Shown here piece by piece: positions 1 through 31,478 of a stretch of 37,804 nt of DNA; positions within the stretch are counted from its first letter, which is position 1, and each line of letters starts with the position of its first letter. The stretch is taken from the IMG/VR virus record IMGVR_UViG_2565956716_000007; one strand, written 5' to 3'. This stretch comes from a virus. Its lineage: Duplodnaviria; Heunggongvirae; Uroviricota; Caudoviricetes. The notes under the pieces were generated by a model. The model was not told the DNA's origin. It saw nothing but the letters and a program-made list of their open reading frames with translations, and did not search any database. The translations under genes and the position numbers were made by a program.

Positions 1-483
1 ATGACGAAGAAAAAAGCACATAAACCTGGTTCAGCGACCATCGCGCTTAACAAGCGCGCCCGTCACGAATACTTTATCGAAGAAGAGTTCGAAGCGGGAC
101 TTGCCCTGCAAGGCTGGGAGGTTAAATCCCTGCGCGCAGGAAAAGCCAATATCAGCGACAGCTACGTCCTTCTGCGTGACGGAGAGGCATTTCTGTTTGG
201 CGCTAACATCACGCCAATGGCCGTGGCCTCCACGCATGTGGTGTGCGATCCTACCCGTACCCGCAAGTTACTTCTCAACCAACGCGAACTGGACTCATTG
301 TACGGTCGCGTCAATCGAGAAGGCTATACCGTAGTGGCGCTCTCCCTGTACTGGAAAAATGCCTGGTGCAAAGTGAAAATCGGCGTCGCCAAAGGTAAAA
401 AACAGCACGATAAACGTTCAGATATCAAAGAACGCGAATGGCAGGTGGATAAAGCACGTATCATGAAAAACGCCCACCGTTAA
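1..483 (+). CDS. smpB: SsrA-binding protein SmpB
   Basis: 160-aa ORF whose sequence I recognise as enterobacterial SmpB; lies immediately upstream of the tmRNA gene, as expected. Confidence 0.97.
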
Positions 484-697
484 ACCTGCACTCCAATTAT
501 TGACCAGTTCCTCACCGCGCCTCCCTCTCCGGCGGCGCGAATGAACATCTTATTGGCTATCACATCCGACACAAATGTTGCCATCCCATTGCTTAATCGA
601 ATAAAAATCAGGCTACATGGGTGCTAAATCTTTAACGATAACGCCATTGAGGCTGGTCATGGCGCTCATAAATCTGGTATACTTACCTTTACACATT

Positions 698-1060
698 GGG
701 GCTGATTCTGGATTCGACGGGATTTGCGAAACCCAAGGTGCATGCCGAGGGGCGGTTGGCCTCGTAAAAAGCCGCAAAAAATAGTCGCAAACGACGAAAA
801 CTACGCTTTAGCAGCTTAATAACCTGCTTAGAGCCCTCTCTCCCTAGCCTCCGCTCTTAGGACGGGGATCAAGAGAGGTCAAAGCCAAAAGAGATCGCGT
901 GGAAGCCCTGCCTGGGGTTGAAGCGTTAAAACTTAATCAGGCTAGTTTGTTAGTGGCGTGTCCGTCCGCAGCTGGCAAGCGAATGTAAAGACTGACTAAG
1001 CATGTAGTACCGAGGATGTAGGAATTTCGGACGCGGGTTCAACTCCCGCCAGCTCCACCA
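698..1060 (+). ncRNA. ssrA: transfer-messenger RNA (tmRNA, SsrA)
   Basis: Starts GGGGCTGATTCTGGATTCGACGGG and ends with the tRNA-like acceptor/T-arm ...GGTTCAACTCCCGCCAGCTCCACCA; 363 nt, matching the E. coli ssrA layout. Confidence 0.95.
1016..1060 (+). repeat. 45-bp att core (ssrA 3' end), left copy
   Basis: ATGTAGGAATTTCGGACGCGGGTTCAACTCCCGCCAGCTCCACCA recurs identically at 34159..34203. Confidence 0.75.
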
Positions 1061-23496: not shown

Positions 23497-24738
23497 CTAT
23501 AAATCTTCTTGTGTAGGAAGTGTCGAGATATCACCTCCATAATTTATTTCAATCTCTGGAAATCGTTCTCGCCACTGTTCAAAAGTTTTTGGAATAGTTT
23601 TTTTCCATTTATGTACATTTGTGAAATAACGAATTTCACCATCATTGAGATAAATAGCCCATATCTCGCCATCTCTACCAAACATCACCATACCTTCCGC
23701 AATGGTATAAAGTCCTCTAACTCCTCCCTGATAAGCCTTTGCGACAAAAGTATCAAGATTATCGTGCTCACCTATTTGCTCCATCACTTTTTTCAGTTCA
23801 AAGTAATATTGCCCCATAACGTTGTATAATCTCTGAAGTTCCATTTCATTTGCAAAACCAAATAAAAACAAATGATCCTCTGCACAACGAAACTCACCAT
23901 CAAAAAAGGCCCCCATACCTCGCCAGTATTGACAACTAACGGTCTCACTTATCCTAATATATCGTTTACCATCAAATATGCTGCGCCTAAAACTCAACTC
24001 GCCAAATTCATTACTTCCAGGTATTTTTATTCTAGCGTAAGCTGAATCTCTAGCTACAAAAACCGCCTCTCCTGTAATACTCCCAGAATGTGATCCATTC
24101 ATAACTACTAAATCAAAAAGAAAACCATTTGACGATGTTTCACGAATAAATAATTTGCCAAAATTACTTCTGCGATTGTCCTTGTACCACTCCCCCCACC
24201 ATATTGGTGCATTTAAACCTGAAGAAATAGCTCCTTGGCTTGAATCACTCAAGGACTCCCTTAATGCAGTTTCAAGTCGCCCTTGCAGTAAGCTTCTTAC
24301 CTCAGGTTTTGAATCACTATCAGGGTCCATAGTATATGCAATTACCCTCCGTCCTCTTAAGTCAAAAGGAAGTTCTTCTGGAGAACCATAAAATGTATTC
24401 TGGACCATGATTACTCTATCCCAGCCTAGCTGGGATACTGCATATCCTAATTCAATCAAAACATTTGGATTAGGTGTCTTCTTATCCTCAGACCTTCCAT
24501 TTATGATAGAAACATCGGCAACAAAAACATCTGAAAGTGATATTTTATTAAAAATGCTTTCGCTAATTGATGGTGAGCCATTTAAACCATTAGTATCACG
24601 ATCCAAGACTGGCTCCAATGTTTCTGTTTCATCCTTTTTTATTGCTTTTAGAGATCTAACCAAAGCATCTTGAATTAAATTTCTATTACATTTTCCATTT
24701 AAATCAGATTGCCAAGAGTAAAAAACTATTCTTTGCAT
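23497..24738 (-). CDS. hypothetical protein, N-terminal TIR-like domain with uncharacterised C-terminal domain (candidate defence cargo)
   Basis: 413-aa ORF with GAGGAG RBS 8 nt upstream; N-terminus RIVFYSWQSD...DVFVADVS...NPNVLIELGYA...LPFDLRGRRVIAY fits the TIR-like pattern; AT-rich relative to flanking genes. Confidence 0.7.
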   Translation of the reverse strand: MQRIVFYSWQSDLNGKCNRNLIQDALVRSLKAIKKDETETLEPVLDRDTNGLNGSPSISESIFNKISLSDVFVADVSIINGRSEDKKTPNPNVLIELGYAVSQLGWDRVIMVQNTFYGSPEELPFDLRGRRVIAYTMDPDSDSKPEVRSLLQGRLETALRESLSDSSQGAISSGLNAPIWWGEWYKDNRRSNFGKLFIRETSSNGFLFDLVVMNGSHSGSITGEAVFVARDSAYARIKIPGSNEFGELSFRRSIFDGKRYIRISETVSCQYWRGMGAFFDGEFRCAEDHLFLFGFANEMELQRLYNVMGQYYFELKKVMEQIGEHDNLDTFVAKAYQGGVRGLYTIAEGMVMFGRDGEIWAIYLNDGEIRYFTNVHKWKKTIPKTFEQWRERFPEIEINYGGDISTLPTQEDL

Positions 24739-24820
24739 TTGCCATTCTCCTCATCCTTTTATTGCCAGATTATCTAAAAACATAGTCGAAGTGAATTCTT
24801 ATCGAACCGTATTGCGCGCA

Positions 24821-24839
24821 CTCGTATCCCCGCCACGCC
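24821..24839 (-). other. putative cos (cohesive end) site
   Basis: Minus-strand GGCGTGGCGGGGATACGAG shares its first 13 nt with the P2/186 cohesive-end sequence as I recall it; position between Q and the early region fits. Confidence 0.3.
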
Positions 24840-24888
24840 TGCCCGCTTTATGTAGTGGTTTTCATGCACCTGCATGATCTACGCAAAA

Positions 24889-24909
24889 GCCCGCCAGTTC
24901 TGGCGGGCC
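24889..24909 (-). terminator. hairpin downstream of the DinI-like gene
   Basis: GCCCGCCAG-ttc-CTGGCGGGC perfect 9-bp stem. Confidence 0.35.
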
Positions 24910-25043
24910 TTAGCAAAAACGATCCTCAAACGATCATGCGATCTCATGCGGCATAGACATGCACTACAGAGCTAACGCCTCGCAAGGGCTCGTTGTTCAA
25001 CCTTGCTGACGCCAGAAGCAAGTTCAGACGCCAGCAACGTTTC

Positions 25044-25277
25044 CTAATGCAGCCAGCTGTCGTCTTCCCACACCTTCTGCATAATTTTCATCACTTGTTT
25101 TCTTTCTTCGTCCAGTTGCAGTCCGGTTAGTTCCACACCGTTAGAGCTACCTTTGCGAATGCGAATTACCGTTTTGGGATACAGGGGGCGCAGATTGCGG
25201 TAAAGCTCGGATTCAAGGGCGTCCAGGGTAGACTGGCTAATCTTCTGCTCTTTATCGATCATTATTTCAATGCGCAT
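25044..25277 (-). CDS. DinI-like protein (SOS-module component)
   Basis: MRIEIMIDKEQKISQSTLDALESELYRNL...KVWEDDSW follows the DinI pattern; GAGGTGA RBS upstream. Confidence 0.7.
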   Translation of the reverse strand: MRIEIMIDKEQKISQSTLDALESELYRNLRPLYPKTVIRIRKGSSNGVELTGLQLDEERKQVMKIMQKVWEDDSWLH

Positions 25278-25287
25278 AAAAGTCACC

Positions 25288-25476
25288 TCAGCTGATGACA
25301 TCCATTGAGCGGTTGTATTCGTGGGTTCTGATTTTTGCCATGAGTTCATCAGTCAATTCAGAAACCCACTGCAGAGCCAGCCCCTTCTCTTCATCACTAC
25401 ACTCACTAGCCGCTACAAGCTTAAGAAAAAAATCAATGCGCTGGAGCTTCAAAGACTCCAAAAAATAGTCCTGCAT
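25288..25476 (-). CDS. small protein, first gene of the LexA-boxed operon (tum-like N-terminal part?)
   Basis: 62 aa from MQDYFLESL with GGAGG RBS; ends 11 nt before the DinI-like start in another frame. Confidence 0.45.
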   Translation of the reverse strand: MQDYFLESLKLQRIDFFLKLVAASECSDEEKGLALQWVSELTDELMAKIRTHEYNRSMDVIS

Positions 25477-25518
25477 CTTTCCTCCTATGACACCACACGC
25501 AATACTGTATGTATAACC

Positions 25519-25537
25519 ACTGTTTATATTTACAGTA
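25519..25537 (-). promoter_or_regulatory. LexA (SOS) box
   Basis: ACTGTTTATATTTACAGTA matches CTGT-N8-ACAG; an overlapping weaker box is at 25503..25522; about 45 bp upstream of the ATG at 25476. Confidence 0.6.
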
Positions 25538-25629
25538 TATAATAATCTTACTGATGTAAAACGTTTTTTTACGTTCATCAGCCTGATATGCCTGGTATTA
25601 TTAAGAGCACGAATTGTTAACCCGCGTAA

Positions 25630-28044
25630 TTAATACAGGTTCCGCCACTGATCATCTTCCTGCAAACGCTGGTTCCGATAGAAGATACGCAGGCCTGCTC
25701 CTGACGGAATACTGCCTCCGCGAAGGAGTAAATCGACCTCTTTCTCGCTGCCATCAAATCCTCTGGACTTCAGCTCATACACGAGCTGCAGTCGCTGATG
25801 GTCTGTAATTCGCTGTTTGTAGTCTTTACGCCGTTTCGGTTTCACCAGGCGTAACCTTGCTGCCAGTTCCCGGCGCTCTTTTTTGCTCATACTGTGCAGG
25901 TAATCGTGCAACTCCTTGTCATCCATGCTGGTAATGTCCGTTCTGGGGTCCCCATCAGCTGATTTATCTTTCTCCTGTTGGTTCAAATTTTCAGCAAGGG
26001 GACAGTTATTGCCACGAGTCCAAGGGGCGCAAGCGCCCTGGTCGGCTGCCGCCTCCTGAACGTCAACGGCCTTACGAACCATTTTCCACTTCACGGCATG
26101 AGTGCAGATCTTGCCCTCTGCAATAGGTGACCAGATGCCATAAATACGAATGCCGTGATCGCCATAGGCGGTCGGCTCTTCGTTGATTTCATACGCAGTT
26201 CTGATGAGGTGATATTTACGGGGAACCAGTACGCCGCCCTGCTTCATGATGTAGGTGGCAAAACAACCAGCATCAGCAGCAGCCAGGATTGCATCAAGGC
26301 GCGGGTTATCCAGTACCGGCGCACCTGCTTTTTTGTCACCCTGTTGCCTTGCCGCCTGACCAGCCAGCAATCGCAGTTCACGGTAAGCCTGACGCCCCGG
26401 AATGCCAAAGAAGCGGAATTGCTGAACACGATGCAGAGACGCCCAGGCATTCACGTATTCAGCGTTATCACGCAGGGATTTACCCGTTTCCTTGCTGATC
26501 TCGCCAGCCAGACCACGCCCGTCAATGTTCTTACTGATATATTTCGCGATGTAGCTTGTCGGCGTTCCTTTGCGCGGGTTAATCAACTCAGACTTAAAGC
26601 GCGGCCCCGTGTTATTGCCCAGCTCCTCGCGGTCTTCACGGATGGCAAACTTACGCAGTAATGCAGTGATGGCGCGGCGGTCTTTTTTGCGCATAAAACA
26701 CAACAGGTGCCAGTGAACTGTACCGTCATGATGCGGCTCAGCCACCCGTACGCCATACCAGCGCAATCCGGCTTTGTGCATCGCCTTACGAAATGCAGCA
26801 AACATGCCGACCAAATAATCACTGCTTTGTCTTACCGTCGCATTTGTCCAGTTCGGGTTGGGCCTGCCGTTATTTAGCGTGGAATGGAAACGTGACGGAC
26901 AGGTGATGGTGTAGAAAACGGCGCAGTCACCGCGCATTTCCGCGATAAGTTCCAGACCTTTAACACAGGCCATCATCTCATTGCGGCGATGCGCAGGGTT
27001 GCTGCTGCTGGCGTTTACCACATCCTCCATGTCCAGCGTGTCGCCGTCTTCGTTCACCAGTTCATGAGAACGGAAAAACTCCAGCGACTTACGGCGCTGC
27101 TCACGTTTATGCATCACGGCTTCATAGCTGACATAAGGAGATGCTTTTTTGCTGACCAGGCAGACAGCGCGCAACTGCTCTTCCCGCCATTCGCAACGCA
27201 TCTTCCATAATTTCCGATACCACCAGTCGGCGCACAGCATACGCGCCAGCGAACCCGGAATGAGTTCATAGGGCACAGGTTTGCGGCGGTTTCTTTTCCG
27301 GCGGAGTTGCTCAAACGCAGGCGGTATGACATCCAGTCGCAGGGTTTCTGCTGCCACCTTTTCCCATGTCTTGCGGATTTCTTCCGGCTTAACATCATCG
27401 GAGGCGTACAAATCACCACAAGCGGCATCAAGACACATGCTCATATGCGCAGCGACAAGGGTGGACAGGCGTTTCACCTGATCCTGACTCATTTCAGGCA
27501 GGATCAGCAGACCGTCCAGCCCTTCATGGCTTGCCATAAAACGAAAAGATGCAGATAGCTGGCTGTCGCGTACATGCTCCAGTCGTTCCAGGCATGGCTT
27601 AATCGTCTCACGCAAATAGCGGGAATAAGCCTTTGGCCTGCCCAGGTTGCTGAAGTATTTAATACGTTGCATCAGCGGCTTGCTGATATGGGAAGGCTGG
27701 GCGTTGACATCCGCCAGAATGACCATGTCTGGATTAAAACGCTGCTGCTCATGCGCCAGCTTTGCCCGGCTAATTAGCTTATCCTGCTCCATTTCGCGCT
27801 GGACAGGATCACGGGATTCATTAAAGAAATAACGCTCCCAGACCTGATCACTCAGTGCCTCGCGGCGCAGTTGTTCCTGCTCGTTATCGGCAGCGTACAG
27901 AGTGATCAGGTTTGAAAGCGCAGAAACCGGCGCAACTTCCGCCGGGTCCAGATAAGGGTTAATGGCCTTTTTCGGGCTGTTCCATGAGAATGCTGCGGCA
28001 GCCTCGTTAAAGCCGCAGCAGTTGTTCATATCGGCATGACTCAT
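25630..28044 (-). CDS. A: replication initiation protein gpA (rolling-circle endonuclease)
   Basis: 804-aa ORF, the largest early gene, at the P2/186 A position; start overlaps the dam stop. Confidence 0.85.
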
Positions 28045-29764: not shown

Positions 29765-29958
29765 TTGTTCCCCCGTTTTTTCGTAGATAGTTCTGCCAGC
29801 AATTCATCTTGTGAACGGCACGGATGCCAGCGTTTACCATCCTCCCCCATGATCCAGCCGTGACCGTAGTGCATTGCCGGGCTTTGTTTTACCAGCAGCG
29901 ATGCAAATGATGGTTCTTTCGTCAGCATAAGCACCTCACAGCAAACCGAATGACGCAC
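29728..29958 (-). CDS. hypothetical early protein
   Basis: 76-aa ORF overlapping the cII 3' end; true start uncertain. Confidence 0.35.
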   Translation of the reverse strand: MRHSVCCEVLMLTKEPSFASLLVKQSPAMHYGHGWIMGEDGKRWHPCRSQDELLAELSTKKRGNKWLLKALRRLFH

Positions 29959-30445
29959 CGAGGCCAGTTACAGTATCAACTGCACTTGCCATCGCAGGAT
30001 TAGCCTGTAAACGGGCCTGCAATGAAACAGCCGCCAGCGCCATCAGTCGTGTTACAGAGTTAATGCTGCTGATAGCATCACGACGACCTGCACTGGTTTT
30101 TACATCGCCAGATACCGCACCTGCAGCAACACGCCCGATCTCTGCAGTTGCACTCATGACGTAATGCGGCAGTTTCTCTTTTGCCACCTCATTAATCGGA
30201 ACACATGGCAGACAATGAATCTGTGCCAGAAAACCGTCTACCAACGTTGAATCTTCAGTCAGATCGGTAAGCAACCAGATTTCTGGTGCGGTGAGCTGAT
30301 GCGGTTGATCTGGATTGAGTTTGTTTCGCAGTGTCTGAACATTCATTCCTGCACGTTCTGCCAGCTTTGCCATATTGTGACGTAGTGCAAAAGCTCTACA
30401 GGCTTCATCAAAATGCGGATGTTTGGAAATCTTGTAATCAAACAT
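29936..30445 (-). CDS. cII: CII-like lysogeny establishment regulator
   Basis: 169 aa, the length of 186 CII; N-terminal HTH region; directly downstream of apl. Confidence 0.7.
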   Translation of the reverse strand: MFDYKISKHPHFDEACRAFALRHNMAKLAERAGMNVQTLRNKLNPDQPHQLTAPEIWLLTDLTEDSTLVDGFLAQIHCLPCVPINEVAKEKLPHYVMSATAEIGRVAAGAVSGDVKTSAGRRDAISSINSVTRLMALAAVSLQARLQANPAMASAVDTVTGLGASFGLL

Positions 30446-30477: not shown

Positions 30478-30726
30478 TTAGTCACCAACGATGACATTAA
30501 AGTTGAAATTGGATTGGCCCATGTTTTTCCTGACTTGTTCCTTTTTGTACTCAAGGTAACGTATACATACTCTGTCTTTCGGTTTTTCTTTTCTTTCCAA
30601 GAATTTAGCGAGTTTACCATTATGAATCATTTGATATACCGAACCGCGAGAGCGGCCTTCCCATTCCGCGAACTCAGCTGGTGTCGCCATCACTTTTGGT
30701 ACACGAATTGAAATGTCGTTGCTCAT
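30478..30726 (-). CDS. apl: Apl/Cox-like excisionase and lytic regulator
   Basis: 82-aa HTH protein, first gene of the lytic operon, divergent from cI. Confidence 0.7.
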   Translation of the reverse strand: MSNDISIRVPKVMATPAEFAEWEGRSRGSVYQMIHNGKLAKFLERKEKPKDRVCIRYLEYKKEQVRKNMGQSNFNFNVIVGD

Positions 30727-30845: not shown

Positions 30846-31478
30846 ATGATACAAGTAAAAGCTGGCGAGAATACAGGGGGAAGAGAGGCTATCCATAGGC
30901 TAATGGCAGCCTATGATTTCAAGTCCAGACAGCAACTTTGCGATCACTTGGGCGCATCAAAAAGCACTATGGCAAACAGATACTTAAGAGATAGTTTTCC
31001 TGCAGAATGGGTGATTCAGTGCGCTTTGGAAACAGGAGTTTCTTTACTGTGGCTAACTACCGGACAGGGCGATCCAGGTTCAAACATTGACCCTAAAAAA
31101 AATATCAATTCCGTGAACTCTAGCAAAGTTAAACCTCTTTCGGAGCTTGTATCTCCTGAAATTGACAAGGCAACTCTCAACGGAGGTTTGCTGATCGATG
31201 CTGGAAAAGCAATCATTGATAGCAGCATACTCCCCTCAGACTCAAGCAACCTGCTGCTGGTGACTACTTCTGGTGATTCTTATTTAATAGATCGCAACCA
31301 AACACCACCAGTAAATGGTACGTGGTTAGTGGACATCGACGGGATAAAAAGCATTGTAAAATTGACACGACTCCCGGGAAACAGATTAGTAGTGCATCAG
31401 GATGATTCATCGTTTGAGTGCGAACTGGATGACATTGAGGTAATAGGCCGCGCACTGAAAATCATTAAGAGCCTTTGA
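30846..31478 (+). CDS. cI: CI-like immunity repressor
   Basis: 210-aa ORF divergent from apl and followed by int (186 layout); true start may be an internal Met. Confidence 0.7.
   Translation: MIQVKAGENTGGREAIHRLMAAYDFKSRQQLCDHLGASKSTMANRYLRDSFPAEWVIQCALETGVSLLWLTTGQGDPGSNIDPKKNINSVNSSKVKPLSELVSPEIDKATLNGGLLIDAGKAIIDSSILPSDSSNLLLVTTSGDSYLIDRNQTPPVNGTWLVDIDGIKSIVKLTRLPGNRLVVHQDDSSFECELDDIEVIGRALKIIKSL

What the first reader, a model, noticed from the sequence alone, without database searches (positions are those of the whole stretch)
25044..25560. SOS-controlled tum/DinI-like module: near-consensus LexA box upstream of two small out-of-frame ORFs
Seen: ACTGTTTATATTTACAGTA (25519..25537), plus an overlapping weaker box, lies about 45 bp upstream of a 62-aa ORF with a GGAGG RBS. 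That ORF stops 11 nt before a DinI-like ORF in another frame. Established: in 186 the LexA-repressed tum gene provides SOS-inducible antirepression and its C-terminal part is DinI-like. Inference: this is the prophage induction trigger; the two frames may be a split (frameshifted) tum or a genuine two-gene arrangement.
Basis: partly seen in the sequence, partly recalled or inferred. Interest (0 to 1): 0.5.

Follow-up and report, generated by a model that had tools for sequence, protein, structure and literature searches.

The report
Split Tum antirepressor plus DinI operon
This is the LexA-controlled two-gene cassette, a small antirepressor followed by a DinI-like protein, that Fels-2/186-type prophages use to switch to lytic growth after DNA damage; it is intact, very common, and already described in near-identical relatives.

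Summary
On the minus strand, just downstream of replication gene A of a Fels-2-like (P2/186 family) prophage, lie in order:
- a near-consensus LexA box, the only one in the window;
- a second box that overlaps it;
- a 62-aa ORF;
- a 77-aa DinI-family ORF;
- a strong terminator.

The 62-aa protein is 98% identical to Fels-2 STM2728. Profile searches show it is homologous to the N-terminal antirepressor part of phage 186 Tum, although BLASTP finds nothing. The 77-aa protein matches Tum residues 71-145 and is 78% identical to PSP3 TumB.

The split is not a frameshift:
- In relatives the gap between the two ORFs is 10, 11, 12 or 13 nt, so the relative frame varies.
- In the relatives compared, the stretch just upstream of the second ORF's start codon is purine-rich and Shine-Dalgarno-like.
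- Both ORFs have dN/dS of 0.0-0.12.
- No fused form was found in this family.

The prophage has a 186-type CI, Apl and CII switch, and the CI has no detectable autocleavage domain.

Verdict: a real, ordinary and already known module. The minor extra is a colicin-style double SOS operator.

The parts
25555..25560 (-). Candidate -35 hexamer TTTACA of the SOS promoter
   Evidence: Read. It is followed by 17 nt and then TACTGT, the same register as the annotated 186 p95 promoter (TTGCCA, 18 nt, TACTGT). The consensus promoter scan did not call it, because the -10 matches only 3 of 6. This part is inferred by analogy.
25518..25537 (-). LexA (SOS) box 1, TACTGTAAATATAAACAGTG; its left half doubles as the candidate -10 (TACTGT, 25537..25532)
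   Evidence: It is the only CTGT-N8-ACAG in the window. It is also the only match to the 20-mer consensus with up to 3 mismatches, with none in 100 shuffles. It is conserved in position in Fels-2, SopEPhi, Yersinia MLG42, ST437phi4.1, ST13phi12.1, 186, PSP3 and ESSI2.
25503..25522 (-). LexA box 2 (CAGTGGTTATACATACAGTA); its 16-mer core overlaps box 1 by one base, so its left half is GTG instead of CTG
   Evidence: It is conserved in all Fels-2-type relatives examined. Together with box 1 it is 86% identical over 42 nt to the operator upstream of a colicin-like bacteriocin gene on pCKO3. [quoted passage not shown]
25481..25485 (-). Shine-Dalgarno GGAGG of ORF1
   Evidence: Read. It is conserved as AGGAGG in relatives.
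25288..25476 (-). tumA-like gene, 62 aa: the predicted antirepressor of the 186-type CI
   Evidence: It is 98.4% identical to Fels-2 STM2728. It matches PHROG 698 at E 3.6e-38, and 186 Tum residues 7-44 hit the same PHROG at 6.7e-6. The family profile scores 35 bits on 186 Tum N, against a maximum of 6.4 bits for 1000 shuffles. dN/dS is 0.03-0.12. AlphaFold2 predicts a two-helix hairpin with pLDDT 90.
25284..25289 (-). Candidate Shine-Dalgarno GAGGTG of ORF2, overlapping the ORF1 stop codon
   Evidence: Read. In relatives the stretch just upstream of the ORF2 start is also purine-rich, while the spacer is 10-13 nt long; that these stretches act as ribosome-binding sites is my reading, not a tool call.
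25044..25277 (-). tumB / dinI-like gene, 77 aa
   Evidence: Pfam DinI PF06183, E 6.6e-23. E. coli DinI structure 1GHH, E 2.7e-6 over the full length. 41% identical to 186 Tum residues 71-145, starting exactly at the GTG of the annotated truncated Tum. 78% identical to PSP3 TumB. dN/dS is 0.0-0.10.
24882..24911 (-). Intrinsic terminator ending the operon (11-bp GC-rich stem followed by UUUU)
   Evidence: Fold energy -19.7 kcal/mol, z-score -2.8. It lies inside the segment conserved with other Fels-2-like phages; that homology ends near 24812.
30846..31478 (+). 186-type CI immunity repressor, the presumed target of the antirepressor
   Evidence: Pfam Phage_CI_repr plus Phage_CI_C, with no other Pfam family at E<=0.01. 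It is 32% identical to 186 CI. It is flanked by an Apl-like gene at 30478-30726(-), a CII at 29936-30445(-) that is 71% identical to 186 CII, and int.

Best explanation
This is the SOS-induction operon of a Fels-2-like, 186-type temperate phage.

In a lysogen, LexA occupies two overlapping SOS boxes that cover the promoter just downstream of replication gene A, and keeps the operon silent.

DNA damage activates RecA, LexA cleaves itself, and one transcript is made. It encodes two separate proteins and ends at the terminator at 24911-24882.

- The first protein (62 aa, a helical hairpin, the TumA type) is the antirepressor. It binds the 186-type CI repressor, which shows no detectable autocleavage domain, and stops it binding its operators. 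The early lytic promoter then fires and the prophage is induced.
- The second protein (77 aa) is a free DinI homologue. It probably acts on RecA filaments to tune the SOS signal, as the internally initiated truncated Tum of 186 is annotated to do.

Shown here: the anatomy, the homologies, the conservation and the two-gene status.

Inferred: LexA binding, the CI-TumA interaction and the role of the DinI-like protein.
For: Anatomy:
- The region holds a unique near-consensus LexA box plus an overlapping second box, an SD and 62-aa ORF, an SD-like stretch and 77-aa DinI ORF, and a terminator.

Homology of ORF2:
- It aligns with 186 Tum residues 71-145 at E 3e-24.
- It is 78% identical to PSP3 TumB.
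- It matches the E. coli DinI structure 1GHH.

Homology of ORF1 to the Tum N-terminal part:
- A profile built from the ORF1 family scores 32-35 bits on 186 Tum residues 6-43. The best of 1000 shuffles scores 6.4 bits and the best of 465 other window ORF segments scores 5.0 bits.
- There are reciprocal PHROG cross-hits. ORF1 hits phrog_698, phrog_8554 and phrog_1993. 186 Tum N hits phrog_1993, phrog_8554 and phrog_698 (6.7e-6). PSP3 TumA hits phrog_1993.
- hhalign of the narrow profiles gives a colinear 3-43 to 3-43 alignment.

Two real genes:
- The spacer is 10, 11, 12 or 13 nt, so the relative frame is +1, +2, 0 or +1 across relatives.
- dN/dS is 0.0-0.12 at dS of about 1 for both ORFs.
- No fused form appears among the 88 family representatives found in 1.84 billion proteins.

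Context:
- The prophage has a 186-type CI with no Pfam family other than the two CI domains (so no S24 hit), plus Apl and CII.
- A LexA box lies upstream of every TumA-family gene examined, including those with no DinI gene next to them.

Literature:
- 186 Tum is the LexA-controlled anti-CI factor (PMC7708051; record annotation).
- Fels-2 and PSP3 have tum split into two halves, and in PSP3 the upstream gene carries the antirepressor activity (PMC3121763).
Against:
- ORF1 has no pairwise BLASTP similarity to 186 Tum or PSP3 TumA. The link is at profile level only.
- The promoter hexamers are weak and the consensus scan did not call them.
- The antirepressor assignment for the upstream gene of PSP3 is a personal communication cited second-hand. 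PSP3 TumA is the most distant of the three types from this ORF1.
- The role of the DinI-like protein is unclear even in well-studied systems. Deleting dinI homologues in Gifsy prophages had no significant effect on induction.
Confidence: 0.85

Rival explanations
1. The two ORFs are the remains of a single fused tum gene, as in 186, broken by a recent 1-nt indel. That would make this a pseudogene or a sequencing error.
For: In 186 the two parts form one 146-aa polypeptide. Here the ORFs are only 10 nt apart and out of frame.
Against: - The same split, with identical proteins, is present in 1125 of 5426 complete E. coli genomes and in Fels-2, RE2010, Klebsiella and Yersinia phages.
- Spacer length and frame vary among relatives (10-13 nt), with a purine-rich, Shine-Dalgarno-like stretch before the second start codon in each.
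- dN/dS is 0.0-0.12 for both ORFs.
- No fused member appears among the representatives of this family.
- ORF2 begins exactly where the 186 internal GTG start lies.
Confidence: 0.02
2. A fused Tum-like protein is made from the two ORFs by programmed ribosomal frameshifting or stop-codon bypass.
For: The ORFs are very close. A small hairpin (25299-25282, -9 kcal/mol) spans the ORF1 stop codon and the ORF2 SD.
Against: - The required shift would have to be +1, +2 or 0 in different relatives.
- No slippery motif is conserved.
- By inspection of the junction sequences, the hairpin is not conserved beyond the closest relatives, and it folds no better than 17 of 200 shuffles.
- A purine-rich, Shine-Dalgarno-like stretch and an ATG for ORF2 are present in every relative compared.
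Confidence: 0.02
3. The cassette is only an SOS-regulated phage dinI operon that modulates host RecA. The 62-aa protein is an accessory of unknown role, and induction of this prophage is triggered in another way.
For: - ORF1 has no curated annotation: PGAP calls it 'hypothetical protein' and PHROG 698 is 'unknown function'.
- The pairwise similarity to Tum is nil.
- There is no direct experiment on this exact protein.
Against: - The profile-level homology to the Tum N-terminal part is robust against controls.
- TumA-family genes with a LexA box occur without any adjacent DinI gene, in ESSI2-type phages and other contigs. The small protein is therefore the constant element.
- The CI shows no S24 autocleavage domain in the Pfam scan, so an antirepressor is the expected route to SOS induction.
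- Fels-2, which carries the same cassette, is induced when LexA is lost.
Confidence: 0.08

Closest known systems
Fels-2 (Salmonella LT2) STM2728 and STM2726.1, the split tum locus
   Same: - It occupies the same position after gene A.
- The 62-aa protein is 98.4% identical and the 77-aa DinI protein is identical.
- It has the same 10-nt spacer and the same double SOS box, with 2 changes in the spacer of box 2.
- The literature states that Fels-2 has tum split in two, and that lexA null lethality in LT2 is due to Fels-2.
   Different: - The CI repressor is only 59% identical overall (N-terminal domain 75%, C-terminal domain 53%).
- The gene downstream of the terminator differs. Fels-2 has a 243-aa ORF in the same position and of the same length as 186 orf97 (homology not tested). 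This window has a 413-aa TIR-like gene.
PSP3 tumA/tumB
   Same: - It has the same two-gene layout after gene A, behind a LexA box.
- The record annotates tumA as 'similar to 5' end of 186 tum; UV induction of prophage' and tumB as 'similar to dinI and 3' end of 186 tum'.
- TumB is 78% identical to ORF2.
   Different: - TumA is not alignable with ORF1 by BLASTP. It is linked only through PHROG 1993 (ORF1 E 0.0022).
- In PSP3 the two ORFs are in frame, separated by a stop codon plus one codon.
- PSP3 has a single SOS box.
Coliphage 186 Tum (p95-tum SOS operon)
   Same: - It has a LexA box over the -10 of a promoter downstream of gene A.
- The N-terminal part is homologous to ORF1 and the C-terminal DinI-like part is homologous to ORF2.
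- It acts on a CI of the same family.
   Different: - 186 makes one 146-aa fusion plus internally initiated truncated forms. Here the two parts are separate genes.
- 186 has a single SOS box.
- ORF1 is only about 20% identical to Tum residues 3-43.
Gifsy-1/2/3 dinI-gfoA/gftA operons (Salmonella)
   Same: Each is a LexA-repressed prophage operon that pairs a DinI homologue with a small antirepressor acting on a non-cleavable repressor.
   Different: - The gene order is reversed, with dinI first.
- Those prophages are lambdoid and have a different repressor family.
- Homology of the antirepressors was not tested here.
Colicin/cloacin operon operators (two overlapping SOS boxes)
   Same: - The operators share the architecture CTGT-N8-(A/C)CAG-TGG-N8-ACAG.
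- They are 86% identical over 42 nt to the pCKO3 operator. 965 plasmid records match the 45-nt operator query (most at 80-90% identity); only pCKO3 was opened and checked.
- Such double boxes are reported to bind two LexA dimers and give very tight repression.
   Different: - The similarity is confined to the operator itself.
- The downstream genes are unrelated.
- The shared GTG left half of box 2 follows from the one-base overlap, so common ancestry need not be invoked.
E. coli DinI (PDB 1GHH)
   Same: ORF2 aligns over the full length, including the C-terminal acidic helix region and the conserved W-E-x-x-D-x-W motif. It passes the Pfam DinI threshold.
   Different: It is a phage paralogue that is much closer to 186 Tum C and PSP3 TumB. 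Its effect on RecA is untested.

Membership tests
186 Tum-type SOS antirepressor module (tum / tumA-tumB) | Located directly downstream of replication gene A of a P2/186-family phage, and transcribed in the same direction | tested here: met
   gpA (Pfam Phage_GPA, E 5e-128) ends at 25630 and ORF1 starts at 25476 on the same strand. The layout is the same in 186, PSP3 and Fels-2.
186 Tum-type SOS antirepressor module (tum / tumA-tumB) | Promoter overlapped by a LexA box | tested here: met
   At sequence level only. There is a unique 20-mer match with 3 mismatches, and none in 100 shuffles. Its position is conserved in all relatives. LexA binding was not tested.
186 Tum-type SOS antirepressor module (tum / tumA-tumB) | Protein homologous to the N-terminal (non-DinI) part of 186 Tum | tested here: met
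   The profile scores 32-35 bits, against at most 6.4 bits for 1000 shuffles. PHROG cross-hits are reciprocal. Pairwise BLASTP is negative.
186 Tum-type SOS antirepressor module (tum / tumA-tumB) | Antirepressor part and DinI-like part fused in one polypeptide (the 186 form) | tested here: not met
   These are two ORFs with a stop codon, a 10-nt spacer and separate start signals. This matches the PSP3/Fels-2 split form rather than the 186 form.
186 Tum-type SOS antirepressor module (tum / tumA-tumB) | Cognate repressor of the 186 CI family, without a detectable RecA-stimulated autocleavage domain | tested here: met
   Pfam finds Phage_CI_repr and Phage_CI_C and no other family at E<=0.01, so no Peptidase_S24 hit. 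The protein is 32% identical to 186 CI.
186 Tum-type SOS antirepressor module (tum / tumA-tumB) | The protein binds CI and prevents operator binding, and its expression induces the prophage | not testable with these tools
   This is known for 186 Tum. For PSP3 TumA it is reported by personal communication. It has not been measured for this protein.
DinI family (PF06183) | Sequence match above the curated Pfam threshold over the whole domain | tested here: met
   81.3 bits against a cut-off of 24.2, covering profile positions 1-63 of 63. The 1GHH alignment spans residues 1-75.
DinI family (PF06183) | Binds RecA filaments and modulates the SOS response | not testable with these tools
   Inferred from homology only.
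Colicin-type double SOS operator | Two SOS boxes whose 16-bp cores overlap by one base | tested here: met
   The boxes are 25535..25520 and 25520..25505. They are 86% identical over 42 nt to the pCKO3 bacteriocin operator and are conserved in Fels-2-type relatives.
Colicin-type double SOS operator | Cooperative binding of two LexA dimers | not testable with these tools
   Reported for colicin operators (PMC2994835). Not measured for this promoter.

The most novel reading that the evidence does not exclude
The Fels-2-type TumA may be a generalist antirepressor that recognises the conserved N-terminal DNA-binding domain of CI.

Phages carrying a 98-100% identical TumA have CI repressors that are only 43-59% identical overall. 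Their N-terminal domains are 61-75% identical, while the C-terminal domains are 33-53% identical.

If this reading is right, one SOS-induced TumA could derepress several different co-resident P2-like prophages. The colicin-style double SOS box would make this a late trigger that fires only after severe damage.
Probability: 0.25. Interest if true: 0.4.

Novelty: already known. Interest (0 to 1): 0.15.

Why it matters
This cassette decides when a very common family of enterobacterial prophages is induced by DNA-damaging stress, including quinolone antibiotics. The family is present in about one in five complete E. coli genomes.

Nothing new in kind is found. The split tum of Fels-2 and PSP3 is already in the literature and in GenBank annotation.

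The practical value is in annotation. The 62-aa gene is still labelled 'hypothetical protein' by PGAP and 'unknown function' in PHROGs. The profile evidence here justifies calling it a TumA-type antirepressor.

The evidence also shows that the antirepressor is the constant element of the module and the DinI partner is optional.

Tried and rejected
- BLASTP of ORF1 against 186 Tum and against PSP3 TumA found no alignment.
- hhalign of the two narrow profiles, both of low diversity, gave the right colinear alignment but only P = 0.0011 and 21% probability. Broader profiles were needed.
- The sigma-70 consensus scan called no promoter in 24700-25700. The promoter is assigned only by analogy with 186 p95.
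- A PDB sequence search with the ORF1 profile found nothing.
- A Foldseek search of the ORF1 model returned only generic helical hairpins at E > 0.6.
- Rfam found nothing in the region.
- Bunny et al. 2002, the primary paper on Fels-2 tum, is not held in the library. Its content is cited second-hand.
- A literature search for 'TumA TumB PSP3' returned only irrelevant papers.
- The 101-aa upstream extension of ORF2 was considered and rejected. It overlaps ORF1 in another frame, and that frame relation is not conserved in relatives.
- The 96-aa upstream extension of ORF1 was also rejected. It would translate the LexA boxes, and family conservation begins at the MQDY start.
- The small hairpin at the ORF1/ORF2 junction was rejected as a regulator. 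By inspection of the junction sequences it is not conserved beyond the closest relatives, and it is not better than shuffles.

Full report
**What is in the sequence**

All features lie on the minus strand. Replication gene A (804 aa, Pfam Phage_GPA, E 5e-128) ends at 25630.

Downstream of it the sequence reads TTTACA (25560..25555), 17 nt, then TACTGTAAATATAAACAGTG (25537..25518). This 20-mer is immediately overlapped by CAGTGGTTATACATACAGTA (25522..25503).

After that come:
- GGAGG at 25485..25481;
- ATG at 25476 and a 62-aa ORF that stops at 25288;
- a 10-nt spacer containing GAGGTG;
- ATG at 25277 and a 77-aa ORF that stops at 25044;
- an 11-bp GC-rich hairpin followed by UUUU at 24911..24882 (-19.7 kcal/mol, z -2.8).

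**Is the LexA box more than chance?**

- The 16-bp core CTGT-N8-ACAG occurs once in the window. With 0.40 matches expected, that alone is weak evidence.
- The 20-mer consensus with up to 3 mismatches matches only here, and in none of 100 shuffles.
- A canonical box sits 17-65 nt upstream of the homologous gene in every relative read. These are Fels-2, vB_EcoM-813R9, SopEPhi, Yersinia MLG42, ST437phi4.1, ST13phi12.1, 186, PSP3, ESSI2_ev015, ESSI-2 and four metagenomic contigs.
- In 186 this box is annotated as the LexA site over the -10 of p95. The window has TTTACA, 17 nt, TACTGT in the same register.
- The generic promoter scan called nothing, because TACTGT is a poor -10. The promoter is therefore inferred.

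**What the two proteins are**

ORF2 is a DinI-family protein:
- Pfam PF06183, 81 bits against a cut-off of 24;
- a full-length match to E. coli DinI structure 1GHH;
- 41% identity to 186 Tum residues 71-145 (E 3e-24), beginning exactly at the GTG that the 186 record annotates as the start of 'truncated Tum - modulates SOS induction';
- 78% identity to PSP3 TumB.

ORF1 has no Pfam family and no BLASTP similarity to 186 Tum or PSP3 TumA. It is 98.4% identical to Fels-2 STM2728 and has hundreds of 62-aa homologues in Enterobacterales.

A whole-library HMM search found 88 representatives. All are short proteins except one 1205-aa hit, and none is fused to a DinI domain. A profile built from the divergent members gave these scores:

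| Target | Score |
|---|---|
| 186 Tum residues 6-43 | 32-35 bits |
| Best of 1000 shuffles of Tum | 6.4 bits |
| Best of 465 other ORF segments of the window | 5.0 bits |

The PHROG library links the three types independently:
- ORF1 hits phrog_698, phrog_8554 and phrog_1993.
- The 186 Tum N-part hits phrog_1993, phrog_8554 and phrog_698 (6.7e-6).
- PSP3 TumA hits phrog_1993.

The shared core is E-x4-[QE]R[IV]-x7-9-C-x6-[LI]A[LI]-x-[WL][IV][AS]E[LI], as I read it from the alignments. AlphaFold2 predicts a two-helix hairpin (pLDDT 90), with the conserved Cys in the turn. Searches of solved structures were uninformative.

**Frameshift or two genes?**

It is two genes.
- Across relatives the ORF1-stop to ORF2-ATG spacer is 10, 11, 12 or 13 nt. 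The relative frame is therefore +1, +2, 0 or +1, and each relative has a purine-rich, Shine-Dalgarno-like stretch before the ORF2 start codon.
- In PSP3 the two ORFs are in frame, separated by a stop codon plus one codon.
- Pairwise dN/dS is 0.03-0.12 for ORF1 and 0.0-0.10 for ORF2, at dS of about 1.
- The same arrangement is present in 1125 of 5426 complete E. coli genomes.

The antirepressor-type gene also occurs alone behind a LexA box, with no adjacent DinI gene. This is seen in ESSI2-type phages and in contigs carrying 186-type or distant family members. Fused 186-type forms also exist.

The small helical protein is thus the constant element, and the DinI partner is fused, adjacent or absent. 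The two halves also evolve separately. TumB is 78% identical between this phage and PSP3, while the TumA parts cannot be aligned pairwise.

**Context**

The window is a prophage next to smpB and ssrA, with the tmRNA gene at 698-1060. It has a 186-type switch:
- CI at 30846-31478 (Phage_CI_repr plus Phage_CI_C, no other Pfam family at E<=0.01, 32% identical to 186 CI);
- an Apl-like gene;
- CII, 71% identical to 186 CII;
- integrase.

A CI without a detectable autocleavage domain would need an antirepressor for SOS induction.

**Mechanism proposed**

LexA holds the operon off. RecA-stimulated LexA cleavage lets the transcript be made. The 62-aa protein binds CI and prevents operator binding, as 186 Tum does. 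The DinI-like protein acts on RecA filaments to modulate the signal.

The steps from 'LexA binds' onward are inferred from homology and from published work:
- Lemire et al. [quoted passage not shown] 2002, as cited). That primary paper could not be read.

**Extra observation**

The operator is of the colicin type, with two SOS boxes whose cores share one base. That overlap forces the left half of box 2 to be GTG.

Forty-two nucleotides are 86% identical to the operator upstream of a colicin-like bacteriocin gene on pCKO3, and 965 plasmid records match the 45-nt operator query. Such double boxes are reported to bind two LexA dimers and to give very tight repression.

Fels-2-type relatives keep the double box, whereas 186, PSP3 and ESSI2 have a single one. 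This suggests, but does not show, that induction of this prophage group is set to a higher damage threshold.

**Verdict**

The finding is real and correctly interpreted. It is a known module: the split tumA/tumB of Fels-2 and PSP3, in a copy nearly identical to that of Fels-2.

Novelty is low. The useful outcomes are a defensible annotation for a gene still labelled hypothetical, and a clear rejection of the frameshift idea.

Noticed in passing
window 25503-25537 (- strand); L013 1960-2001: The tumA operator consists of two SOS boxes overlapping by one base. It is 86% identical over 42 nt to the operator of a colicin-like bacteriocin gene on plasmid pCKO3, and 965 plasmid records match the 45-nt query. 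Fels-2-type phages keep the double box, while 186, PSP3 and ESSI2 have a single box.
   Followed up: partly
window 23497-24738 (- strand): The gene just downstream of the operon terminator encodes a 413-aa protein with a weak N-terminal TIR-like match (Pfam CAP12/Pycsar TIR, E 6.6e-6; PADLOC TIR effector, 1.8e-9). Its C-terminal approximately 260 aa match nothing. Homology with other Fels-2-like phages stops near 24812, and those phages carry different genes in this slot. It therefore looks like variable, possibly anti-phage, cargo.
   Followed up: partly
window 30846-31478 compared with L014-L018: Phages with a 98-100% identical 62-aa TumA (813R9, 4LV2017, Cartapus, Kp4865-2, Fels-2) have CI repressors only 43-59% identical to this one. 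The CI N-terminal domain is 61-75% identical, with a long invariant stretch around SKST.A.R..RD.FPA.W.IQC.LETG. The C-terminal domain is 33-53% identical. This hints that TumA targets the N-terminal domain.
   Followed up: partly
L004 1501-1713; L012 1501-1668; L019 2501-2692; L021 535-744: TumA-family genes with an upstream LexA box occur with no DinI gene next to them. In these loci the next gene is a convergent regulator, a portal gene or a DNA methylase. The DinI partner is therefore optional.
   Followed up: partly
window 25282-25299 (- strand): A 6-bp hairpin (GTCATC/GGTGAC) encloses the ORF1 stop codon and the ORF2 Shine-Dalgarno and is followed by UUUUAU. It could couple translation or attenuate transcription. 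However, by inspection it is not conserved beyond the closest relatives, and 17 of 200 shuffles fold at least as well.
   Followed up: yes
window 1-1060: smpB (1-483) and the tmRNA gene ssrA (698-1060, tag ANDENYALAA) flank the prophage, which suggests integration at ssrA.
   Followed up: no
L011 1501-2031 (Escherichia phage 500465-1): In this relative ORF1 has a short internal stretch that reads out of register (EERGWLCSGVSELT instead of EEKGLALQWVSELT). The DinI gene is annotated with a longer 105-aa product, and gene A is truncated next to IS elements. This is probably a decaying copy.
   Followed up: no
window 25288-25476; E. coli genomes: The cassette is present in 1125 of 5426 complete E. 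coli genomes. Even so, the 62-aa gene is annotated 'hypothetical protein' by PGAP, 'unknown function' in PHROG 698, and in some records 'levan regulatory protein'.
   Followed up: yes
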